Shown in pieces: positions 14,218-44,461 of a DNA stretch of 64,000 bases (positions within the stretch are counted from its first letter, which is position 1; every line of letters begins with the position of its first letter). A model generated the notes under the pieces. It did not search any database. It saw only the letters and a list, made by a program, of their open reading frames with translations, and was not told the origin of the DNA. The translations under genes and the position numbers were made by a program. The DNA is from a phage: the sequence record PZ540767.1. One strand, written 5' to 3'.

Positions 14218-14240
14218 GGGAGCCTTGTGCTCCCTTTTTT
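14218..14240 (+). terminator. rho-independent terminator
   Basis: GGGAGC-CTTGT-GCTCCC hairpin followed by TTTTTT. Confidence 0.7.
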
Positions 14241-14254
14241 ATTATGAGGTCACC

Positions 14255-17002
14255 ATGGGACTCTTTAGCGGAAAGAAGAAAACGTACCGAGACTTTAGCT
14301 ACTCTCGCCTAATTGAAGATGATTACCTGCCTGATGTTATGGGTCAGGCAGTTACTACGTATGTGCTGGATAAAGATAATACCAAATCACTTACTGATCT
14401 GATGCTGGAATATGGGTGGTCAGCTAACAATGTTAAGTGGGATGCTGCATATCGCTGGGCCAAAAAAGGTAAGTATTTTTATGGCCTCCCTACTACCACT
14501 ACTGTTACTGCTACTGACTTCACTGGTTCAGAGTCCTTAGAAGATGTTCTGCAATCACTCACAGGTCGTACAGATCTTACCTATGTATATAGTAAGTTTG
14601 TGCCTGGGAATTTCAGGCATGGTATGTGGCAGCAACTGATCTCAACTCAAAATTATAATGCCACTACTAATATCCTGGGATCTCTGACTTCATCTTTGGG
14701 CACTACGTGCTGGCTTCATAATGCTACTAACTATTTAACCAGTGAAACCAGGGAAGCTGTAGAAGACACCATGCTGGAGCATTGGGGCTTGTCACCTAAG
14801 AGTGGAGCTACCAATATTCGAAGCCAGGATTTGAATGCTGCTGATACTCCTGATGGGGTTAGTGCCACTGGTTCCAATTATGTCCGTGTGGAGTATGCGT
14901 GTAGCTTTGCTGGGGTAGAACGAATTAAGACCGTGGAAACCACTAAGGTAACCACTACAATTAAAACCCCAGATCCCAATGAGGAAGGTAGCTACACAGA
15001 AGAGACTTCATCTACTTCTTCAGATACCACTACTAACACGACTAACTGGAATGGGGTAACTCTACCTAATAACGTGATCAGTGCAGTGGATGTAGGTACA
15101 GGTACTTCAGAGGTTACTGAAAGTGATCCTGTCGATACGCAAACTACAACTGATGAAACTACTGGGGTAATTACAGAAGTCGTTACAGAGGTCACCAGAG
15201 TTATCACAACAAACACTGTTTCGATCAATGTTATTGCTTACTTCAATATGTCGTTTGGGATCTATGACTACAACCCTGATTCTGAAACCATTGACACTAC
15301 CACTGTGTTGGATGACCGAGATTCTGGGGATTATGATCCTACTGCTCCTCTGGTTCCAAGTGGGGAAGATACCGATGATTCCCCAGATTACTTCATGGTG
15401 TGTTATGAATATACCTCAGGGGGTACTCTCCATATTGGTTACTTTACCTATCAATATGGGTCTGGGAATTATCCTGCATTGGATGGGATCACAGGTACTG
15501 AGGTTGCCGACTTCGGACAACACTTCCCTCGTATGTATTTCCGTCTGGATGGTAAACGCCTCATTTCAGATGAGTACTCACAAACTGAAGGCTATAAGAC
15601 CAGTAAAAAGTTAGGTAATAAGCTGGACTTAGGTTGGTTAGATGTAGGAGAAGAAATTTATAATAGCTTGAGTTCTTTGGGCAAAATCAGAGATGTAATG
15701 ATGATTCTTATGGTTCCTGCCAATACTGAAAATGCTATTGAACAGGAATATCTCTATAACTATTTTCATACCCTCTGTATGTTACGTCCCCAGTACACTG
15801 AAAAAAACTGGACAATCTACTCAACTGAGTCTTCACAATCTGGTTCAGCTACAGTACCCCCATCAGATCTGGATACTTTTGATATGCGTTTAGGGGCTTT
15901 CATGGAGTCCTCTGACACATTTATTGCAACATCAAACCAGATGGACTGCCTGGGGTATGCTCGTATCACAGGCTCAATAGGTAACATTGGTGCCGTGGCT
16001 TCAGGGAGGGGTACAGGTAAGCTTCCCTTTAGATATGAATACAGACAGGATAATCAGCTTAAATACCGTTATGGTGTGAAAGATGTAGATTATCATTACT
16101 ACAGAGTTCAGGTATCCAGCACTCAGTATGATGAAGTCAGGGTGTATAACCTAAGCCACCAGGTTCGTGTAGGCGGTAAACAGGTTAACCGGAGTGGTTC
16201 CAGTGATGAACTCATGGTGCCTTTGGATCATGCTTTCAGAAAGCTGTTTAGTACTCATGAAAGAGAAACATTATATGCAAGGGCTGCTCAGATTTTAATC
16301 TGCACTGAGTATACAGTTAAGACTAAGTGGTATCAGACTAGCATTTTCAAGGCAATTACCGTTGTAATAGCTGTAGCTGTTTCTTGGTGGACTGGGGGAG
16401 CTTCTTTATCCATGATTAGTGTGTTAACTGCTGTAGCAACAACGGCAGCAACAATGATAGCTTTCTCACTATTGAGTAAGTATGTGTTCAGTAAACTGGG
16501 AAGTTGGGCTTCTATTCTGGCTACTGTAGTTGCTGTGGTCGCTGCTGTTTATGGGGGATATCTTGCTTATACAGGAACTACAGGCCCATATAGTTTAACT
16601 GCCCAAAATCTTATGCAGGCATCCAATGTTGCATTTAAAACTGCTGATGCTTCCCTAAAAGGACAGCAAATAGCTATGCAGCAAAAGTTTGGATCTCTTC
16701 AGAAAGAGTTAGAAGAAAAGCAGGAAGTACTACAGCAAGCTCAAGATGAGTTAAACCAGGGTTCTAATACTATTTCTGACTGGATATTCCTACAGGCTAC
16801 AAATGGCTATGTTAACTTAGGTGAAACACCTGATCAGATGATAACCCGTACTTTGAATACAAATATTGGAACACTGGCTTTACAGCTACCTGACGTATAC
16901 CTAAGTCAGGCATTGTCTTTACCTTCACCTGTAGAGATCATGCAGTTTATGCAACAAAAACTGTATACTGTTCCAGATGACGAACTCAATCCACTTACAT
17001 GA
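14255..17002 (+). CDS. large virion protein, candidate ejection/channel protein
   Basis: ATG at 14255 with GAGG RBS (ORF track begins at a TTG at 14225); Thr-rich low-complexity linker; long hydrophobic segments near C-terminus. Confidence 0.6.
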   Translation: MGLFSGKKKTYRDFSYSRLIEDDYLPDVMGQAVTTYVLDKDNTKSLTDLMLEYGWSANNVKWDAAYRWAKKGKYFYGLPTTTTVTATDFTGSESLEDVLQSLTGRTDLTYVYSKFVPGNFRHGMWQQLISTQNYNATTNILGSLTSSLGTTCWLHNATNYLTSETREAVEDTMLEHWGLSPKSGATNIRSQDLNAADTPDGVSATGSNYVRVEYACSFAGVERIKTVETTKVTTTIKTPDPNEEGSYTEETSSTSSDTTTNTTNWNGVTLPNNVISAVDVGTGTSEVTESDPVDTQTTTDETTGVITEVVTEVTRVITTNTVSINVIAYFNMSFGIYDYNPDSETIDTTTVLDDRDSGDYDPTAPLVPSGEDTDDSPDYFMVCYEYTSGGTLHIGYFTYQYGSGNYPALDGITGTEVADFGQHFPRMYFRLDGKRLISDEYSQTEGYKTSKKLGNKLDLGWLDVGEEIYNSLSSLGKIRDVMMILMVPANTENAIEQEYLYNYFHTLCMLRPQYTEKNWTIYSTESSQSGSATVPPSDLDTFDMRLGAFMESSDTFIATSNQMDCLGYARITGSIGNIGAVASGRGTGKLPFRYEYRQDNQLKYRYGVKDVDYHYYRVQVSSTQYDEVRVYNLSHQVRVGGKQVNRSGSSDELMVPLDHAFRKLFSTHERETLYARAAQILICTEYTVKTKWYQTSIFKAITVVIAVAVSWWTGGASLSMISVLTAVATTAATMIAFSLLSKYVFSKLGSWASILATVVAVVAAVYGGYLAYTGTTGPYSLTAQNLMQASNVAFKTADASLKGQQIAMQQKFGSLQKELEEKQEVLQQAQDELNQGSNTISDWIFLQATNGYVNLGETPDQMITRTLNTNIGTLALQLPDVYLSQALSLPSPVEIMQFMQQKLYTVPDDELNPLT

Positions 17003-17010
17003 GGTGACTA

Positions 17011-17436
17011 ATGGCTGGATTATCGATGTATCCAAGTCTGTGGGATCAGGGGTCTATGTCCCCATCTCTAGACTCTCTGAGTTCTGGTTTTACCAACTCA
17101 GCAAATACTTTTAACAATACGGCCCTTACTGGTTCAGGTGGTTCAGGTAGTTTCCTGGATAGTATCCTGGGAGGCTCTGGTGAAATGTCTGGTTTGCAGA
17201 TGGGCCAGCTTGGTCTGGGGGGTGTAACCAGTTTGCTTAATGGTTATCTTGGTTTCCAGAACCTGGGCCTTGCTAAGAAACAATACCAGTCTCAGCTTGA
17301 CCAGTTTAATAAGCAGTGGGATGCCAACAAGAAGTTAACCAATGCTTCTCTGGCAGACCGTCAGGCTGCTCGTGTTGCAAGTAACCCTAATGCATATCAG
17401 TCTGTTGATGACTATATGAAAAAATATGGGATCTAA
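17011..17436 (+). CDS. Gly/Ser-rich virion protein
   Basis: 141 aa; GAGG RBS; low-complexity G/S/L-rich composition. Confidence 0.5.
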   Translation: MAGLSMYPSLWDQGSMSPSLDSLSSGFTNSANTFNNTALTGSGGSGSFLDSILGGSGEMSGLQMGQLGLGGVTSLLNGYLGFQNLGLAKKQYQSQLDQFNKQWDANKKLTNASLADRQAARVASNPNAYQSVDDYMKKYGI

Positions 17437-17439
17437 ACC

Positions 17440-18516
17440 ATGGCTATTAGACTGCAACAAATTGCTGCACCTAACTTTGCTGGTTCTAACCAATTACTGC
17501 TGGCAGCAAACCAGCAGATTGGTAATGCTCTCCAGGGGCTACAAGGCACCCTGGGGCAGTATCGTGATGAAGTAGTACGCCGTAATACAGCTCAGGCTGT
17601 AGGACTGCTTACTGGGGCTACAGATGCTAATGATCTGGCCCAGCGTCAACAGCAAGTAGCACAGTTGGTTCAGCAAGGGGATATTGACCCCACTCGTGTA
17701 TCTGAAGTGGCAGCAACCATGCCAGATACTTTGTTAGGACGTCAGACTAATCAGCTAAAGCTGAACCAGATTCAGACTGCACAGCATGATGCACCATTAA
17801 TGGGTGCTTATATGCAAGCTGTTATGTCTGGGGATCAGAATGCAGCTAAAGGTATTTTGTCGCAATTCCAGGGGGATGCTTCAGATGCTCTGAAGTTTGC
17901 CTCTGATTGGGATATCAAAAACCAGCAGTTGAATCTTCAACGGTCTGAACTGGCACAGCGTCAAGCTCAGTTTGCTGCAACTCAGGCAGCAGCTAAGGCA
18001 AGAGCCGGGCAGAGTAATGCACTGCTTAAAGCCTTACCTGGTTTGCTTAACACAGGTAATGATATTCAGGGGAAGGCTGAAGCCAGGGATTTACAGGCTA
18101 ATGCTCAGGATGCTCAACAACGTGTTGCTATGGATCCTATAAACAACCCTAAGCTTAATGTTGCTGGGTGGGCTGATGCTAACAGTGATGTTTGGTTTAG
18201 GGGCTGGGGAAGACAGGCAGACTCTGACAGAATTTTTAATGCTCTGAAGGATCAACCAGCTTTTAAAGCACTTAATCCTCAACAGCAGATAAATATCCTA
18301 GACGGTGCCCTTGCTAATGAAAACTCCCGCGAAGATAAGGGAAATGTTTCTACTGTAAATGCTGCTACTAAGTATCTGACTGATGCAACGAAGCGCTTAA
18401 ATACCCTGAAGATTACTTCACGGCAAGCAGAGGATGCAAAAGATCAGCAATCTGTTATGCAAGAGCAAAGGGATCGTTTAAATAAGCTGCTTCTGCCCTT
18501 ACTTTTCCAACAGTAA
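17440..18516 (+). CDS. virion protein (Gln/Ala-rich)
   Basis: 358 aa; immediately upstream of the giant polymerase gene. Confidence 0.5.
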   Translation: MAIRLQQIAAPNFAGSNQLLLAANQQIGNALQGLQGTLGQYRDEVVRRNTAQAVGLLTGATDANDLAQRQQQVAQLVQQGDIDPTRVSEVAATMPDTLLGRQTNQLKLNQIQTAQHDAPLMGAYMQAVMSGDQNAAKGILSQFQGDASDALKFASDWDIKNQQLNLQRSELAQRQAQFAATQAAAKARAGQSNALLKALPGLLNTGNDIQGKAEARDLQANAQDAQQRVAMDPINNPKLNVAGWADANSDVWFRGWGRQADSDRIFNALKDQPAFKALNPQQQINILDGALANENSREDKGNVSTVNAATKYLTDATKRLNTLKITSRQAEDAKDQQSVMQEQRDRLNKLLLPLLFQQ

Positions 18517-18560
18517 TGAGGTTACAATCTGGGTACTCCACAATACTAAGGAATACTCAG

Positions 18561-21500
18561 ATGGCTGGTAACTCATCTCCTCTGGACAAGTTTCTTGTCC
18601 CACAACAGGTAACAGGTCAGGAAGCTGCTCAGGCACTTCCTGCACCTACCCAACCAACTATCGCCCAGCGTGTGAATGATGCTTCTACTCGTATCCTGAA
18701 TAACCTCACAGGACAGGGTATGTATCCTACAGAAGAAGGCGAGATTGCTCGACTCAAACGAATTAATAACGAACAGTCGGCATATGCTAAAGAAGTAGCT
18801 GCAAAAGATTCAGATTACGGTTGGTCTTCTACCAACTTCTTAGATCCTGAAACGTCTTCATTGACTGATCGTACAGCTTCTACCTTTGTTAACTATGGCA
18901 AAGCTCTTACTGATGCTGTTAATGGTCTTGCAGGCAAAACAGATAAGACTTTCAAAACACTGGGTAATGTGCTGGATCAGGCTTCTATTCCTAACGATGC
19001 ACTGGATGCTTATCGTCGTGTGCAAGCTGGTAAAGGCACCGAAGCTGATAATGCCCTGTTAGATCGTCAGGGTGCCTGGTGGACACAGCCTATTGAAGTA
19101 AATCAATATGGTGTACCAGAGATGGGTAACCAGACTCTTCGTCAACGTCTGGATGCTATCAACGAACGTCAGAAAACCCAAAACCAGAGTAGCTATGACA
19201 ATCTTGAGAAACTAGCTAACCCTGTTCAAATGCAGCAAGCTGCTGCTGATATTGAGAAATCAATTGAAGGTAAATCAGGACTTGATAAATTTGCTGCTGG
19301 TTTAGCTGCTATTGCTCGTAACCCTGGTGCTGCTGGTCAGACTATGGTGGAGTCTGCTCCATACATGGTTGGTGGTATCCCGGGTATGCTTGCTTCCTCT
19401 GCTATGCAGGGTGGCTCAGTATTGTCTCAGTATCTGGATACCCAACGTAAAGCTTCTGATGGTCAGATCCCTACAGCTAAAGATGTAGCTATCGGTACTG
19501 GTTTGGGTGTTGTTGATGGTGCTCTGAACTTTGCAGAAAGTATCATTAACCGTACTGCTATGCTTCCAGGATCTAAAGTATTACCTGCCGGAGTTGCTGA
19601 TCGTCTGGTGAACGCAGCACAGCGCATCGCACCACGCAGCTCTACGGCTGCTGCTGCTCTTGCGCGTGTGACTGCTCCTACCCTTGACCTTGCTAAGAAT
19701 GCCTTAACTGAAGGTCTGGTATCTGGTGCTCAAAACCAGATTGAGGAGAACTATGCGAAGGGTAAAAATGAATGGGATACCAAAGGTAATGATGTTGCTT
19801 TCTTCCAGGGGATTGCTGCTGCTACTGGTTTTGGTGCTCCTCGTGCTGCACTTAGTACTGCTGGTGAAGTAGCTAATACTGCTGCTCAGGCTATGCAGAA
19901 ACGTACTGAAGCACAAGATCCTGTAGGCCAAGCTGCTCGTAATACCACCCCAGAAGACTTAATGAATCCACAGTCAGAAGGATATAACCCAGCTGCTGCA
20001 ATTCGTCGTGCTGGTATGGAGTGGACTCGTAACACTGATGCTACTACTGATGAACAAAAGGCTGAGATTCAATCTCAGGCTCAGTCAGCTATGGATGCTG
20101 CACAGAATGATCACCAGAATAACCTGGATATGATTAACCAGAGGGCTACTGCTGAACGTACTCTTGCTGACGCTGGTAAGTTTATTCCTGCTATTCAGGA
20201 GAGACTGGATCAACTTAGTAATGATCCTAATGCAGATCCTGATGCTGTTAATCAGTTACAAACCATTCTGGCTCAACAGACTGAAGCTCGTGATGCTGCA
20301 CAGCAACAACTGGATGCTATGCCTTCTCAGGAGGAACTGGCACAGTCTGCTACCCGTTCTGCTGAAGTACTGGATCAGGCTAAGTCTGAGTTTGGTAAGT
20401 TCTCGTCAGCTACTGGTATGAATACCAATACAGCTAAACCAGAGAACCCAACAGCTTCTGACATTATCAGCCACCCAATGTCTTATACCAATGAAGACCT
20501 GCAAGAGTTTGTGCGTAATGCTCCTGCTAATGCTACCCCTGCTGAATTGGGTACGCTTCGTGCATTAGCTGATGCCAAAGTTGCAGAGAATGCTGTTAAG
20601 ACTGGTTCTAAGGTTAATAGTGAGATCTTCAAATCCACTTCTAATAACCTGTCACTGGGTGATTACCAACAGGGTATTAACACTGCTGTACAAGCTGGTG
20701 ATACTAACCGTATCCAATCCCTGATGACTGGTATCAACAACTTTGAAACTTCCCATACTGCTAAAGCAGATATTGCTCAACAGTACCTTAATGAAGCTAA
20801 ACAGAATGGTAAGTCTTACCAGATCCTGAAAACTTCTAATGGCTGGGAGTTAAATACTGGCAAACGTCTGGATGCTAAAGCACAGGCTAAGAATGGTGGC
20901 TTTACTATCCACAAAGGCTCTACTGGTCTGGTTAACAATATTGTTAATGAGGCCAAAGCTATTACAGCCACTCGTCAGTATATGGAAGGCATTGCTACCC
21001 CATCTACTAACCAGAATGTGACTGGCTCGACTGAGCAAGTAGCAAGCCCGGAGGCGCAGCCCGAGGGTGCAGCTACTGTAGCAGGAGAGACAGGAGCACA
21101 AGAACAACAAGCACAACCAACAATCAGCCCACTGACCACACGAGATATTCGTGCAATGGATCAGGCAACGCTGGAAAAGGTTATGGCTACTACTCAGCAG
21201 GCTATGTCTTCTGACACTAATCCTGTACTGGCTCGTAACCTGGATGCACTTGACCGTGAGTGGACTCGCCGTGCTGATGTGGCTACTAACCAGAATCGTG
21301 GTGTTGATGCTCCTCACCGTAAACTGGATGACTCCTTTAAGCCTAAAGCTCAGGAGAATGAGATCCAGCGTTCACAGGCTGAGACTACTACTCAAACTGA
21401 GCACACCCAGGCTGACATTGACAATGAGTCTACTGGTTCAGAATCTCAACAAACTGCCCCAGTTAACGTAGATGATGTTGTTACCAACACTGATACTTTG

Positions 21501-24500
21501 ACTGAGACTCAACAAGATAATGTAGCTCATGGTGCTCTGAGTATCTTTGGTAAAGTTGGTGAGTCCCTGAAAGCTCTGCGTGAGAAAGCTTTGGCTGAAC
21601 CTAAAGGCTTACAGAACCTTGTGCTTACTGGTTTCAACCAGCGAGTTCGTCCAGGTTTTGGTAGCCCACTGGTAGCAGTGAAAGACTTTATCAATACTCT
21701 GAAAACTGCTGTGGATACTGGTAGCTTCACTGAAGTTAACCGTTTCCTGAAACAGCATATCAGTGAGTCGAAAGCTGAAGGTGCTAAACAGAAAGCTCTG
21801 CTGAAACAGTTTGTGGAATTCCATGATCACATCACAGCTAACCTGGATAACATCATCCGTACTAAAGCCCCTGAGTATCGTTATCAGGACTTTGCTCAGT
21901 TTATCTTGGATGAGAATGGTAACTTTGACTCCAATACTAAAACTGGTATTGCAGCAGGTATCTTCTCCTGGCTTGGTGAGAATGGGGATAAGATGTTCCT
22001 GAACCAGAGTGAAGTAGCTAAAACTCTGCGTATCAAAGAAGATCAGTTAACTCCACAAGCCATGTCTCGTATGGCTGATATTGGCTATCGCCAAGACTTG
22101 ATCATGTCCCAACTTGGTCAACGTATTTATCAGGCTATGGGCTTTGCTAAACGTGCTGACGTTGATCCTAACCGTGCCAGCAAATTGCAGAATGCTCTGG
22201 GTGCTTATGCTCTCCATGCCATGTATTCCAATGGCTATATGGAACAGTCTTTAATGACTGCTAAAGAGTACTTCGATCTGCAAACCATGGGTCTGGATGA
22301 ACAATCAGCTAAAGAAGCTGCACAAGCTTTCCAGAATGACTTTGGTGTTTCCCCTAACGATGCCAAGCACAAGATTGTGTTTAGCCGTCCTGCACGTAAC
22401 TTTGATGCAGAAGGTAAACCAGTAGCTATTGAAGCTATCTCTGACATTAAGAATGGAATGAAAGATACCCGTTCTCTCATGTCTAAGCTGTTCGGTTATG
22501 ATCCTGCTGTACGTGAGGTTCTGACCACTAAGCCTGCTGGTTTCAAACAGAAAGTCTTCGGTAAAATGAATCGTGAAGTTCCTTCTGTTTTGGCTGCTCG
22601 TATCAGCAAAGCAATGCAATATGACTACACCATTGATCAGGGTGTAGTGAATGCTATGCGTACTATGTCCACTGTAGATAATGCTGCTCTGCAACATATC
22701 TTTGGTGTACGTACTGATGCTGATGTGCCCAATGAAATGGAGATCTTCAAGAAAGGACGTGAAGCCAAGAATGCTGATATCCAACGTTCTATGGAAATGG
22801 GTTTAGACTTTGCTAACCGTAGGGGTACTAACCCATTCTGGATGCCTATGGAAGTCTGGACTAACCAACGTATTGGTGATCTGGCTTCAGAGTTCAACCC
22901 ACAGGGTTCCAAAGTACACCGTGCTATGGGTGGCTTGAGTGCTCACCAGGTAGAGATTTCTGTAGCCCGTAATGCTCCTGTGCTGGACGCAGATGGTAAG
23001 CCTACTCAGTATGGCCTGTTCCTTGTATCCCTGGCTCAGGGTATGGAAGAAGCTCCTGTAATTGGTGCTGATGGTAAGAAACTGAAGTCTGTTGATAAGC
23101 AGACCTATGCTACCTTCTTACCTGCTTTCCAGAATTACCTGCGTAAACCAGAGAACATTAAGGCTGTACGTGCTATGCAGAAAGTGATCGCTGGTTCAGC
23201 TACTACTGCTGATACCAACGTCATTAAGAATGCTGTGGCTGAGTATGGTATGAATGGTCAGTCTTTTGCTGCCCTGCATAACCTGGCTCAGTATGCTACT
23301 GCTCTGGAATCTGGTAAGTCTTCTGTTAAGCTGCTGGCTCAAATGGAATCGGACGGTGTTACTAACGGCCCTATCCTGACTAACATCCTGAATGGCTCTG
23401 CTGACTTCGATCTACTGAAGCGTGGTGGTATTTATCGTGAAGGTGACAATATTACCAACATGCCTACTTATCGTGAGTTGGGTGGTCAGGATTACTACGA
23501 GCTGCTGGGTGATGCTATGCGTCAGCATTGGGCTGATTACAAAACCAATGCACCTGCTAGTCAGCAAGGTCAGATTCAGGCTCTGGAATATTTCTCTACT
23601 GGTTATGGTGCTCGTTCTAAGGCCAAGACTCTGGCTACCCCATTCAACTACTCTGCTGGTATTCCAGCACTGAAAGCTGCTATGGGCCGAGCTACTGTAG
23701 AGGATGTTTACTCTAAGATTGGTTCCCTGATCCCACTGGCTAAAAGCAATAACAAAGCAGACTTTGCCAAGGCTTATGCTGAGGTGAGTAAAAACCTTTC
23801 TGTACTCCTGGGTCAGAAAGTAAATCTGCCACGTACTGCTGATGGTCTGGTTAAGTTCAGCCTTAACCCGGCTCAAACTAAACGCATCATTGATGTGGAT
23901 TCTCAGACTCGCGGTGTTGCTACAGAGACTGCTGTTAATGAGGTTGCTGCTGACTTCATTGCATCTCGTGATGCTAATACCAGTCTGGTTAACACAACCT
24001 TTACCCTGGCTAACCTTCGCTACAATGCTGCTAAAGCTGCACTGCTGAAGAAGCGTATTGCTGAGGGTAAAATCCCTGTGGATGCTAAAGGTGCTCCATT
24101 GGAAGGACTCACTCAGGCAGATCTGGATAAGCTATCCCGCATGATTCCTAACATGCCTTCTGCAACTGGTGTTCTGTCTGAGAATACCAAAGCTTCTGGT
24201 TACCCAATGGCTAAGGTGGAGAAAGCTTTTACTGCTAAGTCTCCTGCCACCAGCATTGATATCTACTTCAAAGAAGCTGCTAACCCTAAACCAGCAATGG
24301 ATGCTAATGGGATGCTGCTGAGTCAAGGTCTGGTAGGTGGATACAAATCTACCCAGTCTACTGTGACTGAGACTAAGCTGACTAACCCTGGTGTTGCTAT
24401 GGGTGCTAACGTTACTCAGGGTACTGATGCTGCAATCAGCTCTGATGTAATCAGCAAGATCGAAAGCCAGAACGTGCATGATGCTAACATCCTGTCTCCT

Positions 24501-27500
24501 GACAATGTGCTGAAAGGTGCTCGTATCCAGAACAAAGCTATGTTTGATGCTGTGGTTTCTTATCATCCTCAACATCTGGCTGCTTCTGCACTGCTGACTG
24601 AAGTTCGTAGTCTGGCTGGTGCTAACCTGTCTACCAACGACAAGGTTGCAGCGAAGAAAGCTCTGGAAGCCATGAAGACTAAGATCCTGGGTAAAGACTT
24701 CAAGGGCAACATGAAAGCTGCTCTGAACACTATCCTTAACCAGGCATATGATCGTGACATTAAGAAACTGGAGACTCTCTCTGAAGTCTATGCTGTTAAC
24801 CAGTATGGTACTGAGGGGGGTGAATACCTGATCACTGATACTGATCGTAAGAAAATTGGTGATGAGATTGCACGTCTGAAACGTAGTCGTGCTGCTGGCT
24901 TACAACGTATCTCTGCTATGTTCTCTAAGGGTAATGCCCCAAAGGCTGAGGCCAACCAGTATCCTGATAAGATGAGACAATACCTGTATGAGGCTTCGGC
25001 CTCTACAGGCTCTGTGTCAGCTTCTGAGGTGATGGCTCGTACCAAAGGTAAGTTTGCTAACCCAGTATATAACGAACTCCACAATCTCATTTCTGGTTTG
25101 ATTCCAGCTGATGCTGTGGTGAACGTACTGGATGGGCAGACTATGCCTAAGAATGTTAAGGGGCAGTCACTGCCCCAGAACCGTGATGCCATTGCATGGT
25201 CTTATCAAGATAAAAACACTGCACAGGTTAACCTGTCACTCAGCAAAGAGGCTTCACCTGAAGTCTTGCTGCATGAACTGACTCACATTGCTCTGGGACG
25301 TGCAATTGCTACTGCTGATTCAAATCCAAAAGTAAAAGCTGTACTGGCCCGTACAGAGAAGCTAATGGGTAGAGTGACCAAGCTGGTTTCAGCTGATCCT
25401 CAATTGACTCAGAAGTTTGCCCCTGCTTTGGCTAACGTGGATGAATTTATCTCCTGGGGTATGACTAACCCAGAATTCCAACGTTACCTTGATACCATCA
25501 CTGGTGTGCCTGAAATCTCAGGTCGTAACCGTGGATGGTTGGGTACTGCCTTTAAACAGTTTGTGGATCAAATGTCAGGCATCTTTGCTGCTGTAACTGG
25601 TCGAGCTATTAATGCTCGGGTTACTACTGCTCTGGAAGCTCTGACCTTCGATACTGCACATCTGGTTCAGGCTATTAATCCTACTGCTATTGAGAGTCCT
25701 GTATCTTCTATCAGCCACCCTATGAGCAACACTAACAGTGCTGCTGATCAGGTAGCTAAGTTTAGCCATGTGGATATCTTTGATAACCTGGCTTCAACAG
25801 GTGGCAAGACTAACTCAGCACAGTTCACAGGTAACCTCCGTAATGTAATATCCACTGTGGCGGATCAGCTTTACGGTGCTTTAGGCTCCAGAGTCACCCA
25901 GAATGCCAATGAGAATTATACTCCTGGTCAAGTCTGGAATGAGGCTGTAGCCACTGGGAAAGCCCCTGTCAGCACCGAAGCACTGAGCAATGGGTTTGTA
26001 CTGACTAATCAGGAAGCCTTTGCTGTGGAGGCCATTGAGGCTGCTGTATCTGAATCTCTGGCTTCTGGTTTCACTTCACCAGTTAACCGGGAGATTCGTC
26101 GTACTTGGCAAGCTGCTAAACAATCCCTGAAACCAGAAGACTTCCATAATGGAAACTGGAATCAGGCAACTCAAGCAGAAAAACGAGCTGCTCAACAGAA
26201 ATGGAATTATCTGTTTGATGTAACGAATGACTCTGGTGAGTCCCAGCATCTGTCTCGTTTCGTTGCTATGGCTATTGGGCATGAAGACACCAGTAACTTA
26301 CTTGGCTTCCAGATGGAAGATGGTAAGGACTCTGGTAATACTGCCTTTGAACAGGCTACTGCTTACTTTAACCAGGCTGTTAATACAGTCTCTGGCATGT
26401 TGACCAATACCCATCAAGGACAAGCTGCAAATGCTCGTGCTCAAGCACTAGCTGAAAAGCTGATCCAGATTGAACTTAAGAACCGTGATACCACCATGAA
26501 TATTCTTACTGGTGGGATCGACAAAGTAGAGAATGCCTTAGATACGGCTGCTGCTAAGTCTAAACAGTTCCTGGGTAAAATCGTTAAAGCTACTGGTATT
26601 GATCAGTCCTCCAACAATGCTCTGAATGCTATGGGCAAAGTTGCAGGATTGGCTGCTCGTGATCAGCTGGGTAGCCTGAAAGAAACTATTAAAGAGTTCC
26701 GGGACTTTAATGCCCCTAGTACTCCAGAAGGTTCTCTGGCTTCCATTCTGACTGAAGCAACGAATGCTGATGATGTTCGTGCTCTGCATGAATCTCTGTT
26801 ACGTTCTACTAAACGTATTGAACAGGATCGTGCAACCTTAGCTGCTGTTACTGCTAAGAACTTAAATGAGATGTTTGATAACAATGGTCAAGACCTGACT
26901 AAAGAAGATCGTACAGCAATGACTTACTCACTGCTTCGTACTGATCTTCAGTCTGTGTTGCACATTGAAGGTATGAACCTGAATAACTTACATAAACTGG
27001 TTTCTAATACTGGTTATCGTAAGCAGCAGATCAATAACCTTGAGAAAACCATTAGCCAGTATGCTAACGGTAATGATAAGATCATTCGTGCCAAGGCTCT
27101 GGGATTCTGGATGGCTACTGGCAGAAATACCCTGGGACGTGATTTAGTTCTGAATGCAAAAGCTATTGCTACCGGAGCTGCTACTCACTATTCCACAGTA
27201 GGTATCGAACCGACTCTTGATGAAGTGAACGCCATTGATGCTCTGGCTTCAATGTACGCTCTAAGCTACACCAAGACCGAAAACCGTGTTCGCACTGCTG
27301 CTGTAATGGAACGTGAGCTTGCACGAGGTAAAGACAATGGCATTAAAATGCTGATGGCTACTTATGCGAACCTGATTGAGGATTCTGCTAATACGCTGTT
27401 TGCTGGTAACCAGTTGTCTCGCATTAAAGGCTATTTGCCTGAAGATACCAATCCTCATCATGACTTACGTGCGGTTGAGTCGGGGAGTGCAGATGAAGCA

Positions 27501-29198
27501 GCACTGGTGAACATGGGATACCAAAAAGTATCCCCACTGTCCCAGGACTCTTTGTCAAAACACTCTGGACGTGTACTGTATGTGACCAAAGAGAATGGGT
27601 ATCAACGAACCGTCTCTGGTACTTTCAGTTTAACTGGAAGCCAGCGTAAAGGTTCTTCCCTAAGTGGGGATCGTGCTGTTGCTGATCGTGTTCGAGCTGA
27701 CGAGTTAGAACAGTTAAGGCAAGCGTCCTATGCAGACGTGCGAGGGCGTGAAGCACTGTCCCACACTGCCTTTGATCCTACTCAGATCCAGGATAACCAT
27801 GTAGTGCCTGTATTAAGCACTGATGGTCATATCATGGACTTCCGTTACATGGCTACCCACAATACTCGTGACACGTTCCTTGATCGTAATAATGACTTTG
27901 CTGACCTTGTTGGTCGTCTGGCTGGTCAGAATATCGATAAGGGTGATGCCCCAAGCCAGAATGCTAAGATCCTGGAAGCTCTGCATGAAGACTCTAAGGC
28001 TAATATCCTGAAGAATCCTAATGCTTACTTTGAGATTGGGCCTAATGCACCTACTGAGCGAGGACGTGAGATCTGGGCAATGATGCCTTATGAAGCACGT
28101 ACTAAAGCTACTTCTCTGTGGGGTGCTGATCGTATGTATATTCGAAACGATCTGGTTAACCTTACTTTTGGCTTCCGTAAGTATTCACTGGCTAACATTT
28201 TTGATGTTGATCCAGAACAGCGTAATATTGCTCAGGGTGTTGCTGCTGGTTTACTTGAAGCTGCTTTTGGTGATAAGGCTAAAGCTTATGTAATTAAGGG
28301 TGAGCGTGGCATTCAGGAATTTATGCAGTCCTATAAGGACGTGATCGTTATTCGTAACCTGAAAACCCAGTTCAGTAATATTATGTCTAATACTGCTCTA
28401 CTGGCTGCTTATGGCGTTAACCCGGTACGTATGGTTAAAGATATCCGTACTGCTCTGGTTGCTGGGATTGACTACCGTAAACAGTACTCGCTGCTACTCA
28501 AGTATCAGCAACAGCAACGTGCTGGTATTGGTAACTTTGCTCAGATGGAGTCCCTGATCAATGAGACGCAGGATCGCTTGAATGCTAACCCTCTGGCTAA
28601 GTTTATTCAGGCAGGTATGATGCCTACCATCGTAGAAGACGTTCAGCCTGATGCTGATGGTTACACTTATGGTTCTAAGATCCGTAAGAAATTTAATGAG
28701 GTATCTGCCCATCTGCCAGCTTCTGCTGTAACAGCTGCTCGCTGGGCTGTGATTGATAAAGGTACTGCACCTCATAAATTCTTAAGTGATGCTGCTCAGT
28801 TCAGTGACTTTGCTGCTAAGTATGCTCTGTATAAGCACCTGACAGAACATGCCCGAGATCGCCTGAGTCATACTGAGGCTTTACAACGTGCATCTGATGC
28901 TTTTGTTAACTATGACATTCCAGCTACAGCTACTCGCCAATATCTGGATGATATGGGGATTACCATGTTTACGAAGTATCGTGTTCGTATCCAACGTGCA
29001 ATGTTCTACTTGATGGATAAACGTCCAGCATCTGTTATGGCACATATGGCAATTACAGGGCAGTTTACTCATGCACCTGATGCTATGGAGCCACTGTTTG
29101 CACGTAACTTAGGTAACCCATTCACACCTTCAGTATTGCAGGGTGGGAGTTTGTTGAATGTCCCAATGCCTTGGAACTTATTCAGAATGGCATACTAA
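18561..29198 (+). CDS. virion-packaged RNA polymerase (N4 vRNAP-like giant protein)
   Basis: Single uninterrupted ORF of about 3,550 aa; ATG at 18561 has an AAGGA RBS (first in-frame ATG at 18516 lacks one); followed by terminator. Confidence 0.85.
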   Translation: MAGNSSPLDKFLVPQQVTGQEAAQALPAPTQPTIAQRVNDASTRILNNLTGQGMYPTEEGEIARLKRINNEQSAYAKEVAAKDSDYGWSSTNFLDPETSSLTDRTASTFVNYGKALTDAVNGLAGKTDKTFKTLGNVLDQASIPNDALDAYRRVQAGKGTEADNALLDRQGAWWTQPIEVNQYGVPEMGNQTLRQRLDAINERQKTQNQSSYDNLEKLANPVQMQQAAADIEKSIEGKSGLDKFAAGLAAIARNPGAAGQTMVESAPYMVGGIPGMLASSAMQGGSVLSQYLDTQRKASDGQIPTAKDVAIGTGLGVVDGALNFAESIINRTAMLPGSKVLPAGVADRLVNAAQRIAPRSSTAAAALARVTAPTLDLAKNALTEGLVSGAQNQIEENYAKGKNEWDTKGNDVAFFQGIAAATGFGAPRAALSTAGEVANTAAQAMQKRTEAQDPVGQAARNTTPEDLMNPQSEGYNPAAAIRRAGMEWTRNTDATTDEQKAEIQSQAQSAMDAAQNDHQNNLDMINQRATAERTLADAGKFIPAIQERLDQLSNDPNADPDAVNQLQTILAQQTEARDAAQQQLDAMPSQEELAQSATRSAEVLDQAKSEFGKFSSATGMNTNTAKPENPTASDIISHPMSYTNEDLQEFVRNAPANATPAELGTLRALADAKVAENAVKTGSKVNSEIFKSTSNNLSLGDYQQGINTAVQAGDTNRIQSLMTGINNFETSHTAKADIAQQYLNEAKQNGKSYQILKTSNGWELNTGKRLDAKAQAKNGGFTIHKGSTGLVNNIVNEAKAITATRQYMEGIATPSTNQNVTGSTEQVASPEAQPEGAATVAGETGAQEQQAQPTISPLTTRDIRAMDQATLEKVMATTQQAMSSDTNPVLARNLDALDREWTRRADVATNQNRGVDAPHRKLDDSFKPKAQENEIQRSQAETTTQTEHTQADIDNESTGSESQQTAPVNVDDVVTNTDTLTETQQDNVAHGALSIFGKVGESLKALREKALAEPKGLQNLVLTGFNQRVRPGFGSPLVAVKDFINTLKTAVDTGSFTEVNRFLKQHISESKAEGAKQKALLKQFVEFHDHITANLDNIIRTKAPEYRYQDFAQFILDENGNFDSNTKTGIAAGIFSWLGENGDKMFLNQSEVAKTLRIKEDQLTPQAMSRMADIGYRQDLIMSQLGQRIYQAMGFAKRADVDPNRASKLQNALGAYALHAMYSNGYMEQSLMTAKEYFDLQTMGLDEQSAKEAAQAFQNDFGVSPNDAKHKIVFSRPARNFDAEGKPVAIEAISDIKNGMKDTRSLMSKLFGYDPAVREVLTTKPAGFKQKVFGKMNREVPSVLAARISKAMQYDYTIDQGVVNAMRTMSTVDNAALQHIFGVRTDADVPNEMEIFKKGREAKNADIQRSMEMGLDFANRRGTNPFWMPMEVWTNQRIGDLASEFNPQGSKVHRAMGGLSAHQVEISVARNAPVLDADGKPTQYGLFLVSLAQGMEEAPVIGADGKKLKSVDKQTYATFLPAFQNYLRKPENIKAVRAMQKVIAGSATTADTNVIKNAVAEYGMNGQSFAALHNLAQYATALESGKSSVKLLAQMESDGVTNGPILTNILNGSADFDLLKRGGIYREGDNITNMPTYRELGGQDYYELLGDAMRQHWADYKTNAPASQQGQIQALEYFSTGYGARSKAKTLATPFNYSAGIPALKAAMGRATVEDVYSKIGSLIPLAKSNNKADFAKAYAEVSKNLSVLLGQKVNLPRTADGLVKFSLNPAQTKRIIDVDSQTRGVATETAVNEVAADFIASRDANTSLVNTTFTLANLRYNAAKAALLKKRIAEGKIPVDAKGAPLEGLTQADLDKLSRMIPNMPSATGVLSENTKASGYPMAKVEKAFTAKSPATSIDIYFKEAANPKPAMDANGMLLSQGLVGGYKSTQSTVTETKLTNPGVAMGANVTQGTDAAISSDVISKIESQNVHDANILSPDNVLKGARIQNKAMFDAVVSYHPQHLAASALLTEVRSLAGANLSTNDKVAAKKALEAMKTKILGKDFKGNMKAALNTILNQAYDRDIKKLETLSEVYAVNQYGTEGGEYLITDTDRKKIGDEIARLKRSRAAGLQRISAMFSKGNAPKAEANQYPDKMRQYLYEASASTGSVSASEVMARTKGKFANPVYNELHNLISGLIPADAVVNVLDGQTMPKNVKGQSLPQNRDAIAWSYQDKNTAQVNLSLSKEASPEVLLHELTHIALGRAIATADSNPKVKAVLARTEKLMGRVTKLVSADPQLTQKFAPALANVDEFISWGMTNPEFQRYLDTITGVPEISGRNRGWLGTAFKQFVDQMSGIFAAVTGRAINARVTTALEALTFDTAHLVQAINPTAIESPVSSISHPMSNTNSAADQVAKFSHVDIFDNLASTGGKTNSAQFTGNLRNVISTVADQLYGALGSRVTQNANENYTPGQVWNEAVATGKAPVSTEALSNGFVLTNQEAFAVEAIEAAVSESLASGFTSPVNREIRRTWQAAKQSLKPEDFHNGNWNQATQAEKRAAQQKWNYLFDVTNDSGESQHLSRFVAMAIGHEDTSNLLGFQMEDGKDSGNTAFEQATAYFNQAVNTVSGMLTNTHQGQAANARAQALAEKLIQIELKNRDTTMNILTGGIDKVENALDTAAAKSKQFLGKIVKATGIDQSSNNALNAMGKVAGLAARDQLGSLKETIKEFRDFNAPSTPEGSLASILTEATNADDVRALHESLLRSTKRIEQDRATLAAVTAKNLNEMFDNNGQDLTKEDRTAMTYSLLRTDLQSVLHIEGMNLNNLHKLVSNTGYRKQQINNLEKTISQYANGNDKIIRAKALGFWMATGRNTLGRDLVLNAKAIATGAATHYSTVGIEPTLDEVNAIDALASMYALSYTKTENRVRTAAVMERELARGKDNGIKMLMATYANLIEDSANTLFAGNQLSRIKGYLPEDTNPHHDLRAVESGSADEAALVNMGYQKVSPLSQDSLSKHSGRVLYVTKENGYQRTVSGTFSLTGSQRKGSSLSGDRAVADRVRADELEQLRQASYADVRGREALSHTAFDPTQIQDNHVVPVLSTDGHIMDFRYMATHNTRDTFLDRNNDFADLVGRLAGQNIDKGDAPSQNAKILEALHEDSKANILKNPNAYFEIGPNAPTERGREIWAMMPYEARTKATSLWGADRMYIRNDLVNLTFGFRKYSLANIFDVDPEQRNIAQGVAAGLLEAAFGDKAKAYVIKGERGIQEFMQSYKDVIVIRNLKTQFSNIMSNTALLAAYGVNPVRMVKDIRTALVAGIDYRKQYSLLLKYQQQQRAGIGNFAQMESLINETQDRLNANPLAKFIQAGMMPTIVEDVQPDADGYTYGSKIRKKFNEVSAHLPASAVTAARWAVIDKGTAPHKFLSDAAQFSDFAAKYALYKHLTEHARDRLSHTEALQRASDAFVNYDIPATATRQYLDDMGITMFTKYRVRIQRAMFYLMDKRPASVMAHMAITGQFTHAPDAMEPLFARNLGNPFTPSVLQGGSLLNVPMPWNLFRMAY

Positions 29199-29203
29199 TA
29201 AAA

Positions 29204-29229
29204 AGCCCCTCAATGAGGGGCTTCTTTTT
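29204..29229 (+). terminator. rho-independent terminator after polymerase gene
   Basis: AGCCCCTC-AAT-GAGGGGCT hairpin followed by TCTTTTT. Confidence 0.75.
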
Positions 29230-29235
29230 GGCTCT

Positions 29236-29408
29236 TATGAGTCACGCTTTTCCTGGATGACTGCTCCAATGAGGCAAGCAATAAAAATTACAGCCACAAA
29301 GAACCAGAAGAAGCTAAGTAACCAGAAAGCTACCTTCATTAAAGCCAGTACAGCAATGGCTGCAATCACACAGAACAGGCCAATAAAGCCATTAATAACG
29401 TGTCTCAT
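29236..29408 (-). CDS. small membrane protein (57 aa), absent from ORF track
   Basis: Hand-translated MRHVINGFIGLFCVIAAIAVLALMKVAFWLLSFFWFFVAVIFIACLIGAVIQEKRDS; AGGTGA RBS; 10 nt downstream of 29419..30123. Confidence 0.35.
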
Positions 29409-29418
29409 AGATCACCTG

Positions 29419-30123
29419 TTAGTCGAAGTTAGCAAATGGGTCGTCTTCAGTATCTGCTGGTTTAGCAAAGCCAGCCTCACTGGTTTCAACTACTTTGGTT
29501 ACCGGAGTATCTGCCTGAGCAAACAGCTCGTCACCTTCAGATGAAGCCAGCCCAGCGTCTGCGAATGGATCGACTTCTTCTGCTACAGCAGCATCTTTGG
29601 CTTCTGGCAGCAGTTCATTTTCAGCACGCAGGTTTGCACCTTCGTCAATGTCGAATGGGGCAGCATTGTCTGCATCACTGGTTTCAGCAAAGAGATCTTC
29701 TTCACTTTCAGTTTGAGTTTCTGCTTCAGCTTTTACTTCAGCCTGTGCTGCGGCTTCTTCGGCAGCTTTATCAGCTTCGATTTCAGCTTTAGTACGACGT
29801 TTACGACGCTTAGGCTTATCGTCACCAGGTTCGTTACTGGTTTCCTCAGCTGAATCTTCTTCAGCCTCTTCCTCTTCCACTACTGGAGGCTCTGCGAAGA
29901 GTTGTTTAGCAACTTCAGACACAGAACCAGAACTAAGAGGGCCAGTTAAATCAGCAACAGATTTCAGGCGGAAGTTATCTTCGCCTACAGCTACAGCTGC
30001 CACGATCTGACCATCCAGAATACCTACTGTAACATCAGCCCCTTTAGCTGTAGGTACGAGACTGGAAAACGCATGTTTGGTCACCAGTTCGATCAGATCT
30101 TCAGTAGAAAGCAAAATACGCAT
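29419..30123 (-). CDS. acidic hypothetical protein with DDPF-type C-terminal tail
   Basis: 234 aa; AAGGA RBS; E/A-rich, basic KRRKRR patch, ends DDPFANFD. Confidence 0.55.
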   Translation of the reverse strand: MRILLSTEDLIELVTKHAFSSLVPTAKGADVTVGILDGQIVAAVAVGEDNFRLKSVADLTGPLSSGSVSEVAKQLFAEPPVVEEEEAEEDSAEETSNEPGDDKPKRRKRRTKAEIEADKAAEEAAAQAEVKAEAETQTESEEDLFAETSDADNAAPFDIDEGANLRAENELLPEAKDAAVAEEVDPFADAGLASSEGDELFAQADTPVTKVVETSEAGFAKPADTEDDPFANFD

Positions 30124-30125
30124 AG

Positions 30126-38597: not shown

Positions 38598-38599
38598 GC

Positions 38600-39664: not shown

Positions 39665-39750
39665 AATTTACCCAAAGAATATTGAGTTGGTTGAAAAGGG
39701 TAGTGAGCATAACTCACTTCCCCGGATTCTGTAATCTGGTTATTTAACCA

Positions 39751-40509: not shown

Positions 40510-40591
40510 TATACTTACCTCAGTAAAGGGCTATGCTGCCCATTGTTTAAAAAACAGTTATCATGTCTGTATTCATATACAGGAGACTCCC

Positions 40592-41311: not shown

Positions 41312-41389
41312 CGGGTAATTTCGATAGCCTTATAGTAAGATCTTCCATTAAGATTAGGGTAGTGACTTATTTTTGATGGGAGATCTTCT

Positions 41390-44403: not shown

Positions 44404-44420
44404 GTTAGTAACTTAGAACT

Positions 44421-44446: not shown

Positions 44447-44461
44447 TATATGAGGTTTATT

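What the first reader, a model, noticed from the sequence alone, without database searches (positions are those of the whole stretch)
18561..29198. Giant single-ORF virion RNA polymerase marks this as an N4-like phage genome
An uninterrupted ORF of about 3,550 aa is essentially diagnostic of the N4-type RNA polymerase that is packaged in the capsid and injected with the DNA. Gene order around it (portal, two small genes, capsid, five virion genes, polymerase, then converging SSB/primase/nuclease genes) mirrors what I recall of phage N4 gp59 to gp42. Tail genes are relocated relative to N4 and an NrdAB-ThyX block is added.
Basis: partly seen in the sequence, partly recalled or inferred. Interest (0 to 1): 0.55.

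Follow-up and report, generated by a model that had tools for sequence, protein, structure and literature searches.

The report
N4-type virion RNA polymerase gene

Summary
Observation confirmed. One uninterrupted + strand ORF runs to the stop at 29196-29198. It is 3,560 aa from the first ATG (18516), or 3,545 aa from the better-supported ATG at 18561. The chance of such an ORF arising at random is about 1e-87.

Interpretation supported.
- The gene is 94-95% (nt) and 97% (aa) identical to the annotated "virion RNA polymerase" of Klebsiella phages of the genus Efbeekayvirus (FBKp27, P184, HS106 and others).
- It matches the PHROG vRNAP family end to end (1,750 bits).
- It is collinear with N4 gp50.

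A central-domain profile built without N4 hits only N4 mini-vRNAP structures in the PDB (E = 3e-43). The T/DxxGR arginine and all five catalytic residues are conserved: R1437, D1598, R1685, K1689, Y1697 and D1974.

The gene order gp69-68-67...59-57-56-55-54-53-52-50, followed by converging gp46-45-44-43-42, was verified gene by gene. The relocated tail/lysis block and the added NrdAB-ThyX block are also real.

Minor corrections:
- Only one of the two genes between portal and capsid is small.
- The early region lies outside the window. It holds the RNAPII genes and the probable hairpin promoters.

Novelty: already known. Interest is low.

The parts
18561..29198 (+). vRNAP coding sequence (3,545 aa plus stop). 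An alternative upstream ATG at 18516 would add 15 aa.
18548..18553 (+). AAGGAA Shine-Dalgarno sequence, 7-8 nt upstream of the 18561 ATG
   Evidence: read directly from the sequence
18561..21038 (+). N-terminal domain (aa 1-826), equivalent to the N4 NTD (1-906/919). Similarity to N4 is weak (16.5% identity; one HSP at E = 0.17 over the Gly/Ala-rich segment aa 245-426).
   Evidence: The role in membrane association and ejection is inferred from N4 (PMC13434306).
21039..21551 (+). T/A/Q/D/E-rich low-complexity linker (aa 827-997), equivalent to the N4 linker 907-1006
21552..24938 (+). Polymerase (mini-vRNAP-like) domain, aa 998-2126, a T7-like single-subunit RNAP
22869..22871 (+). R1437, the invariant Arg of the T/DxxGR motif (N4 mini-vRNAP R424), followed by FNPQG as in T7 RNAP
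23352..23354 (+). D1598, the motif A catalytic Asp (N4 D559), in ESDGVTNGP
23613..23651 (+). Motif B: R1685, K1689 and Y1697 (N4 R666, K670, Y678)
24480..24482 (+). D1974, the motif C catalytic Asp (N4 D951), in NVHDAN
24966..25679 (+). CTD subdomain C1 (aa 2136-2373). It carries invariant HExxH (H2238, E2239, H2242; nt 25272-25286) and a downstream invariant E2295...G2300.
   Evidence: The motif was described for N4 in PMC13434306.
25680..29195 (+). CTD subdomain C2 (aa 2374-3545), the part best conserved with N4 (E = 1e-38, about 25% identity). In N4 the CTD is required for encapsidation and autoinhibits the polymerase.
   Evidence: Function is taken from PMC13434306 and PMC13492108.
29203..29223 (.). 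Intrinsic terminator hairpin: 9-bp GC-rich stem, an A-run before and a T-run after. It is likely bidirectional at the convergent junction.
   Evidence: The equivalent is annotated on both strands in FBKp27.
17440..18516 (+). Gene in the gp51 position (358 aa; PHROG 24558 virion structural protein). No detectable similarity to N4 gp51. Presumed ejection protein.
17011..17436 (+). gp52 homologue (141 aa), an ejection protein in N4
   Evidence: (E = 1e-5)
14225..17002 (+). gp53 homologue (tail plug in N4)
   Evidence: PMC13434306
12969..14198 (+). gp54 homologue (tail tube in N4), here carrying an internal repeat expansion

Best explanation
The ORF at 18561-29198 encodes the orthologue of coliphage N4 gp50. 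This is a giant, single-chain, multi-domain RNA polymerase that is packaged into the capsid and ejected into the cell with the DNA.

Shown here:
- It has the N4 domain order: NTD, low-complexity linker, T7-like polymerase domain, HExxH-bearing C1, and a large alpha-helical C2.
- Its polymerase active site is intact.
- It is under purifying selection.
- It sits at the end of the same late structural/ejection operon as in N4 (tail tube gp54, plug gp53, ejection protein gp52, a gp51-position gene, then vRNAP), closed by a strong terminator.

Inferred from N4, DEV and LUZ7 biology:
- A few copies are encapsidated through the C-terminal domain.
- On infection the protein is threaded through the tail after the small ejection proteins, and the NTD anchors it at the inner membrane.
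- The polymerase domain then transcribes the early genes from 3-nt-loop DNA hairpin promoters, independently of host RNAP.
- The early products include the two-subunit RNAPII, which takes over for the middle genes.

The early region is not in the window. In the close relative FBKp27 it contains gp15 and gp16 homologues and a family of three intergenic hairpins that are good promoter candidates.
For: - ORF and start codon.
- 91-95% nt identity over the full length to 13 Klebsiella phages whose gene is annotated as virion RNA polymerase.
- PHROG 2206 'virion RNA polymerase', 1,750 bits, covering aa 60-3555.
- Collinear BLASTP HSPs against N4 gp50 (E = 1e-38, 5e-4, 0.003, 0.17).
- HMM built without N4 scores 549 bits on N4 gp50, with the central segment at E = 1e-47.
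- Central-domain profile against the PDB hits only N4 vRNAP chains (2PO4, 3C2P, 3Q0A and others) at E = 3e-43.
- R1437, D1598, R1685, K1689, Y1697 and D1974 align with N4 R424, D559, R666, K670, Y678 and D951.
- tblastn of the central domain finds 251 phage records, all in N4-like phages and annotated as vRNAP wherever a function is given.
- Purifying selection.
- Synteny with N4 and all seven hallmark genes: with the hallmark list from PMC10654107.
- Neighbouring genes fall in Schitoviridae PHROG families.
- Terminator.
- RNAPII homologues and hairpin families in relatives. The N4 positive control is. LUZ7 early promoters are hairpins (PMC9163698).
- Domain functions: PMC13434306, PMC13492108.
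Against: - No experiment on this phage or its genus was found showing packaging, ejection or rifampicin-resistant early transcription.
- Identity to N4 is low in the Pol domain (17%).
- The N-terminal roughly 330 profile positions of the Pol domain, which hold the promoter-recognition module, did not align significantly with N4.
- N4's promoter-stacking residue W129 falls in a segment with no counterpart here, so promoter specificity cannot be transferred from N4.
- No homologue of N4 gp51 is detectable by sequence.
- There are no Pfam hits, and the direct profile comparison with T7 RNAP is not significant.
- The early promoters and RNAPII genes are outside the window, so the cascade is inferred from relatives.
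Confidence: 0.93

Rival explanations
1. It is the same gene and function, but translation starts at the upstream ATG at 18516. That start is coupled to termination of the preceding gene through the TAATG overlap and gives a 3,560-aa protein.
For: 18516 is the first ATG of the ORF, and it overlaps the stop codon of the gp51-position gene by one base. That arrangement is typical of translational coupling.
Against: There is no Shine-Dalgarno sequence upstream of 18516, whereas AAGGAA precedes 18561. RefSeq annotates the downstream start in FBKp27. Other vRNAPs begin 'MA...' with no equivalent 15-aa leader.
Confidence: 0.15
2. The protein is retained mainly as a structural or ejection protein, and its polymerase domain is no longer an active enzyme.
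For: Only 17% identity to N4 in the Pol domain. No Pfam RNAP domain is detected. The N4 W129 promoter-contact segment is absent.
Against: All five catalytic residues and the T/DxxGR arginine are conserved across ten genera-spanning vRNAPs. The Pol domain is the least variable part relative to FBKp27, with 1-8 differences per 250 aa. Purifying selection is strong.
Confidence: 0.03
3. The giant ORF is unrelated to N4 vRNAP. It could be a different kind of giant virion protein, a crAss-type two-barrel RNAP, or an assembly or annotation fusion of several genes.
For: ORF length alone does not discriminate between these, and other phage groups also encode very large virion proteins.
Against: The protein is collinear along its full length with N4 gp50 and with nine other vRNAPs of 3,220-3,696 aa. 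The only PDB sequence hits are N4 vRNAP. The same uninterrupted ORF is present in 13 independently sequenced relatives.
Confidence: 0.01

Closest known systems
Virion RNA polymerase of Klebsiella phage vB_KpP_FBKp27 (YP_010563440.1; Schitoviridae, Efbeekayvirus) and its relatives P184, HS106, Tribble_ER49, GADU21, cp20 and pKP-BM327-1.2
   Same: 95.0% nt and 97.2% aa identity, the same length (3,545 against 3,546 aa), the same flanking genes and the same terminator.
   Different: There are 97 amino-acid substitutions, concentrated in the first 250 aa and around aa 3000-3250. Genome-wide the window is about 93-94% identical over 72-94% coverage, with a different tailspike region. It is probably a distinct species or strain of the same genus. 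The exact protein is not on record.
Coliphage N4 gp50 (vRNAP; PDB 2PO4, 3C2P, 3Q22, 9PNR, 9PNQ, 11GP)
   Same: The domain order, the catalytic motifs, the HExxH C1 module, the large C2 domain, the position at the end of the gp54-53-52-51 cassette, and the convergent replication genes downstream.
   Different: Only 16-20% identity. The promoter-recognition N-terminal part of the Pol domain is not alignable, and the W129 segment is absent. N4 gp51 has no detectable homologue. The N4 tail-sheath and appendage genes gp64-66 are replaced by Klebsiella-type tail spikes located elsewhere, and NrdAB/ThyX, MazG and a tRNA cluster are added.
Cbunavirus vRNAPs (Pectobacterium phage phiA41, Escherichia phage EK8)
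   Same: These are the nearest outgroup: 37-41% identity in the Pol domain, and the same genome layout of gp69-terL-gp67, reverse small genes plus tRNA plus MazG, then portal to vRNAP.
   Different: They are about 150 aa longer. The candidate early hairpins have an ATA loop rather than an ACA loop.
T7 RNA polymerase and the T7-like single-subunit RNAP family
   Same: The T/DxxGR...FNPQG segment is the one region that aligns. Motifs A, B and C are shared through N4, whose structure shows the T7-like right-hand fold (PMC13492108).
   Different: There is no significant global sequence similarity (hhalign probability 8%; no Pfam RNA_pol hit). The protein is four times larger, with ejection and encapsidation domains, and in N4 it uses hairpin promoters on single-stranded DNA rather than duplex promoters.

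Membership tests
N4-type virion RNA polymerase (N4 gp50 family; PHROG 2206) | End-to-end collinear homology with gp50-family proteins of about 3,200-3,700 aa | tested here: met
   PHROG 2206 at 1,750 bits over aa 60-3555. Collinear HSPs with N4. An HMM built without N4 scores 549 bits on N4 gp50 in three collinear segments.
N4-type virion RNA polymerase (N4 gp50 family; PHROG 2206) | Central domain homologous to N4 mini-vRNAP | tested here: met
   Profile A1 (nine sequences, N4 excluded) against all PDB sequences returns only N4 vRNAP chains, at E = 3e-43 and 151 bits.
N4-type virion RNA polymerase (N4 gp50 family; PHROG 2206) | Catalytic residues: T/DxxGR Arg, motif A Asp, motif B Arg/Lys/Tyr, motif C Asp | tested here: met
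   R1437, D1598, R1685, K1689, Y1697 and D1974 align with N4 R424, D559, R666, K670, Y678 and D951. Codons were verified.
N4-type virion RNA polymerase (N4 gp50 family; PHROG 2206) | C-terminal domain (C1 with HExxH, then large C2) homologous to the N4 CTD | tested here: met
   C2 at E = 1e-38 and 378 bits by profile. HExxH and a downstream Glu are invariant in the nine sequences aligned across C1.
N4-type virion RNA polymerase (N4 gp50 family; PHROG 2206) | N-terminal domain with membrane-associating segment, followed by a low-complexity linker | tested here: inconclusive
   The linker is present (aa 827-997, T/A/Q/D/E-rich). NTD similarity to N4 is only E = 0.17 pairwise and E = 3e-13 by profile. 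A Kyte-Doolittle scan found no segment above 1.4.
N4-type virion RNA polymerase (N4 gp50 family; PHROG 2206) | Promoter recognition through hairpin-contact residues (N4 R119, W129) and cognate 3-nt-loop hairpin promoters | tested here: inconclusive
   An Arg aligns with R119, but the W129 segment has no counterpart and the alignment is unreliable there. There are no promoter-type hairpins in the window. Candidate hairpin families exist in the early regions of FBKp27 and phiA41.
N4-type virion RNA polymerase (N4 gp50 family; PHROG 2206) | [quoted passage not shown] | not testable with these tools
   This needs virion proteomics and rifampicin experiments. It is known for N4 (PMC13434306, PMC13492108); for DEV and LUZ7, PMC11445570 and PMC9163698 state it.
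Schitoviridae (N4-like phages) | Seven hallmark genes (gp39 DNAP, gp56 MCP, gp59 portal, gp67, gp68 TerL, gp69, gp50 vRNAP; PMC10654107) | tested here: met
   All seven give tblastn hits in the window. gp67 is weak (E = 2e-5) but is confirmed by PHROG 2125 at 3e-46.
Schitoviridae (N4-like phages) | Two-subunit RNAPII (gp15 and gp16) for middle transcription | tested here: inconclusive
   There is no hit in the window. The roughly 12-kb early region lies beyond the window's end. FBKp27 carries both genes there (E = 6e-25 and 1e-49).
Genus Efbeekayvirus | High nucleotide similarity across the genome to member phages (genus level is roughly 70% or more) | tested here: met
   93-94% identity over 72-94% of 25-kb segments to FBKp27, P184, HS106 and others, and 95% over the vRNAP gene.
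T7-like single-subunit RNA polymerases (Pfam RNA_pol) | Detectable sequence similarity to T7 RNAP or the Pfam model | tested here: inconclusive
   No Pfam hit. hhalign against T7 RNAP gives probability 8%, and the single aligned stretch is the T/DxxGR-FNPQG motif. The link rests on N4's solved structure.

The most novel reading that the evidence does not exclude
The C1 module of the vRNAP may be an active gluzincin-type metallopeptidase rather than a structural relic. It carries HExxH plus an invariant Glu about 53 residues downstream (H2238, E2239, H2242, E2295), and these residues are invariant in the nine vRNAPs aligned across C1 (eight genera). Such an enzyme could process the polymerase or its partner ejection proteins, or cut a host envelope component during ejection. 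A second, smaller possibility is that the Efbeekayvirus and Cbunavirus enzymes read a distinct hairpin-promoter class (template-strand loops TGT and TAT) through a promoter-binding module that lacks N4's W129 element.
Probability: 0.2. Interest if true: 0.5.

Novelty: already known. Interest (0 to 1): 0.1.

Why it matters
The result correctly classifies the window as an N4-like (Schitoviridae) Klebsiella phage. That classification predicts its biology: host-RNAP-independent early transcription, a three-polymerase cascade, and an ejectosome built around a 390-kDa protein. This is useful for annotation and for phage-therapy bookkeeping, because Efbeekayviruses are being isolated against K. pneumoniae. 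It adds nothing new about vRNAPs, since RefSeq already annotates the same gene at 97% amino-acid identity. The only mildly open points are general to the family: the function of the HExxH module, promoter specificity outside N4, and the identity of the gp51 analogue.

Tried and rejected
1. The search for homologous proteins on the central domain returned no hit at all, although near-identical GenBank homologues exist. The index evidently does not serve these giant proteins. I used tblastn on the phage collection instead.

Single-sequence AlphaFold2 models of the Pol domain (pLDDT 37) and of C1 (pLDDT 45) are unusable, so no fold search was run.

3. Pfam on the whole protein gave nothing meaningful. 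Pfam on nine C1 segments gave only sub-threshold hints: PhageMetallopep at E = 0.09 on the HExxH stretch, and SprT-like at 0.03 in one member.

4. hhalign against T7 RNAP was not significant.

5. A search for N4-type hairpin promoters inside the window found none. Apart from the terminator, the 3-nt-loop hairpins there appear to lie within ORFs.

6. Exact-sequence look-ups of the vRNAP and the capsid protein in public assemblies found nothing on record.

7. A hydropathy scan for transmembrane helices in the NTD found none above threshold.

8. I considered and rejected three alternatives: an ORF-fusion artefact, a crAss-type RNAP, and a catalytically dead polymerase (see the rival explanations).
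Full report
**Observation.** The window contains exactly one ORF longer than 1,000 codons: 18516..29198 on the + strand, 3,560 aa from the first ATG. I favour it for three reasons. It is preceded by AAGGAA at 18548-18553, whereas the 18516 ATG merely overlaps the upstream stop (TAATG) with no Shine-Dalgarno sequence. RefSeq uses the equivalent start in the closest reference. From 18561 the window reads MAGNSS, matching the 'MA' start of eight of the nine other vRNAPs compared, with no 15-aa leader. An open frame of this length has a chance probability of about 1e-87 at the window's base composition. Against the FBKp27 orthologue there are 390 synonymous-only and 97 non-synonymous codon differences, with 412 of 536 nucleotide differences at codon position 3. 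It is therefore a real gene under purifying selection.

**What it is.** Megablast of the ORF finds 13 Klebsiella phage records covering 96-100% of its length at 91-95% identity. RefSeq annotates the gene as 'virion RNA polymerase' in FBKp27 (Schitoviridae; Efbeekayvirus) and in P184. The amino-acid identity to FBKp27 is 97.2%. The protein matches PHROG 2206 'virion RNA polymerase' end to end, at 1,750 bits over aa 60-3555. Pfam has no model for it.

- A single-sequence search against the PDB gave strong hits to full-length N4 vRNAP only in the C-terminal third (E about 1e-33). The central domain was marginal.
- Pairwise BLASTP against N4 gp50 gave collinear HSPs: C-terminal domain 1e-38, motif A block 5e-4, HExxH block 0.003, and N-terminal block 0.17.
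- tblastn of the central domain found 251 phage records, annotated as vRNAP wherever a function is given. They form a graded chain: 97-98% in Efbeekayvirus, 37% in Cbunavirus, 29-30% in Acinetobacter phages such as Presley, 26% in LUZ7 and LIT1, and 21-25% in Vibrio phages and N4-proximal coliphages.
- From nine full-length vRNAPs (N4 excluded) I built an HMM. It scores 549 bits on N4 gp50, with the central segment (N4 1324-2417) at E = 1e-47.
- A central-domain-only profile (alignment A1) searched against all PDB sequences returns only N4 vRNAP chains (2PO4, 3C2P, 3Q0A, 9PNR, 11GP and others) at E = 3e-43.
- In a ten-sequence MAFFT alignment, the published mini-vRNAP residues R424, D559, R666, K670, Y678 and D951 align with R1437, D1598, R1685, K1689, Y1697 and D1974 of the window protein. 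I first verified that those residues sit at N4 positions 1421, 1556, 1663, 1667, 1675 and 1948. The window codons were checked.
- The refutation criterion is not met.
- A direct hhalign comparison with T7 RNAP is not significant (probability 8%). Its single aligned stretch is the T/DxxGR-FNPQG region, which is the correct motif.

**Anatomy.** Mapping the domains published for N4 (PMC13434306, PMC13492108) through the alignment gives the following:

| Domain | Residues | Note |
|---|---|---|
| NTD | 1-826 | weak similarity to N4 |
| Linker | 827-997 | T/A/Q/D/E-rich, low complexity |
| Pol domain | 998-2126 | T7-like polymerase |
| C1 | 2136-2373 | invariant HExxH (H2238, E2239, H2242) and invariant E2295...G2300 |
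| C2 | 2374-3545 | large alpha-helical domain |

The HExxH motif has already been reported for N4 C1 (PMC13434306), so it is not new. A 9-bp GC-rich hairpin flanked by an A-run and a T-run lies 5 nt after the stop codon (29203-29223). It serves as the terminator of the convergent junction.

**Context and synteny.** tblastn of 57 N4 proteins against the window gives the following order.
- On the + strand: gp69 (1295-1972), TerL gp68, gp67, portal gp59 (7397-9394), gp57, capsid gp56 (50.6% identity), gp55, gp54, gp53, gp52 and gp50.
- Converging on the - strand: gp46, SSB gp45, Sak4 gp44, primase gp43 and exonuclease gp42.
- Further along: DNA polymerase gp39, rIIB, rIIA, gp32, helicase gp37, gp25, gp24, gp20 and gp22.

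PHROGs places the genes in the gp58 and gp51 positions in virion-protein families typical of these phages. [quoted passage not shown]

The other claims also hold. N4's gp60-66 lysis and tail block has no counterpart between gp67 and the portal. That interval instead holds two reverse genes, five tRNAs and MazG. The tail fibre/spike, endolysin, spanin and Hoc-like genes lie at 40484-46178 on the + strand. NrdA, NrdB and ThyX are confirmed by Pfam at 36867-40509 on the - strand, and N4 lacks them. The layout is shared with Cbunavirus phiA41, so it is a lineage trait rather than something peculiar to this phage. One correction is needed: the two genes between portal and capsid are 114 aa and 386 aa, so only one is small.

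**Mechanism.**
- Shown here: an intact T7-like active site, the N4 domain order, membership of the gp54-53-52-(51)-50 cassette, and purifying selection.

The early region is outside the window, which lacks about 12 kb relative to FBKp27. In FBKp27 that region encodes homologues of N4 gp14, gp15 and gp16 (E = 4e-46, 6e-25 and 1e-49). It also carries three intergenic hairpins, aTTRYCC-ACA-GGRYAAt, upstream of early ORFs. phiA41 has three analogous hairpins with an ATA loop, and one in each phage lies directly upstream of the same 'toxin' gene. The same scan recovers N4 P1 and P2 as a positive control. On the template strand the loops read TGT and TAT, against GGA and GAA in N4, so the central base is a purine in every case. 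These are candidate promoters only. N4's promoter-stacking residue W129 lies in a segment that does not align outside N4's lineage, and the first ~330 profile positions of the Pol domain did not match N4. Promoter specificity therefore cannot be transferred from N4.

**Novelty.** The gene and its interpretation are already in RefSeq for phages 95% identical in this gene. The window as a whole is about 93-94% identical over 72-94% of each 25-kb segment to the nearest genomes, and the tailspike region differs. Its exact vRNAP and capsid sequences are not on record. It is probably another species or strain of a known genus. The finding is correct and ordinary.

**Dead ends.**
- The large protein index returned nothing for the central domain.
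- Single-sequence models were unusable.
- Pfam gave only sub-threshold metallopeptidase hints for C1.
- No clear transmembrane segment was found in the NTD.

Noticed in passing
window 12969-14198 (+): The gp54-like tail-tube protein is 409 aa here, against about 272 aa in FBKp27 and the other Efbeekayviruses and 299 aa in N4. The extra ~137 aa is an internal expansion of a ~30-aa repeat (..Y-N/Q-L-x4-P-A/T-Q-L/V..). Only one phage in the collection, pKP-BM327-1.2, shares the long form (95.4%). It might lengthen part of the tail tube.
   Followed up: partly
window 6144-6209 (-): A remnant of the tRNA-Asp(GTC) gene that FBKp27 carries between tRNA-Pro and tRNA-Asn. The window is 21 nt shorter here, and ARAGORN and Rfam call only five tRNAs: Gln, Ser, Tyr, Pro and Asn.
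   Followed up: partly
window 62536-63369 (-): The homologue of N4 gp20 (annotated as a lipoprotein) is 63.7% identical to N4 over its full length. That is higher than any core gene (capsid 50.6%, TerL 56.9%, DNA polymerase 44%), which suggests relatively recent exchange or strong constraint.
   Followed up: no
window 25272-25286 and 25443-25445 (+): HExxH is followed about 53 residues later by a Glu (E-x4-G). Both are invariant in the nine vRNAPs aligned across C1. This is a gluzincin-like ligand pattern. Pfam hints (PhageMetallopep at E = 0.09; SprT-like at 0.03 in one member) are below threshold. The HExxH motif itself is already noted for N4 in PMC13434306.
   Followed up: partly
L003 1391-1407, 3577-3595, 4932-4950 (FBKp27 early region); L014 14321-14305, 8991-8975, 8626-8612 (phiA41): Families of three intergenic 7-8-bp-stem, 3-nt-loop hairpins lie upstream of early ORFs in two genera (ACA and ATA loops). 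One in each phage is upstream of the same 'toxin' gene. They are candidate vRNAP early promoters. Hairpins with a TCC loop followed by T-runs look like early terminators (L003 9473, 9817; L014 12913); L003 2573 has the same loop but no T-run.
   Followed up: partly
PQ898399.1 (Enterobacter phage SonariX, 248,734 bp): This jumbo-sized record carries a vRNAP central domain (36.8% identity). It also carries N4-like segments whose matches have identity, score and extent identical to those of the 76-kb phage vB_Ecl_SABI. It looks like a concatenated or chimeric record rather than a jumbo phage with a vRNAP.
   Followed up: no
window 31760-32290 (-): An HNH endonuclease (Pfam HNH_3 plus a weak AP2 domain) is inserted between SSB and the Sak4-like gene. 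N4 has no gene at this position. It is also present in FBKp27 and in Cbunavirus.
   Followed up: no
window 5012-5335 (-) and 769-1014 (+): Homologues of N4 gp48 and gp49 are relocated. In N4 these two genes sit immediately next to the 3' end of gp50. Here they lie near the terminase and the left end of the window.
   Followed up: no
window 17000-30200: Sigma-70-like promoter matches are depleted across the vRNAP region: 8 found against 19.3 +/- 3.7 in shuffles.
   Followed up: no
window 17440-18516 (+): The gene in the gp51 position is 358 aa, against 644 aa for N4 gp51, and shows no detectable similarity to it. It belongs to PHROG 24558 and weakly resembles the N-terminus of the 'lytic tail fiber protein' family (PHROG 28504). 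The outer ejection protein may have been replaced or may be highly diverged in this lineage.
   Followed up: partly
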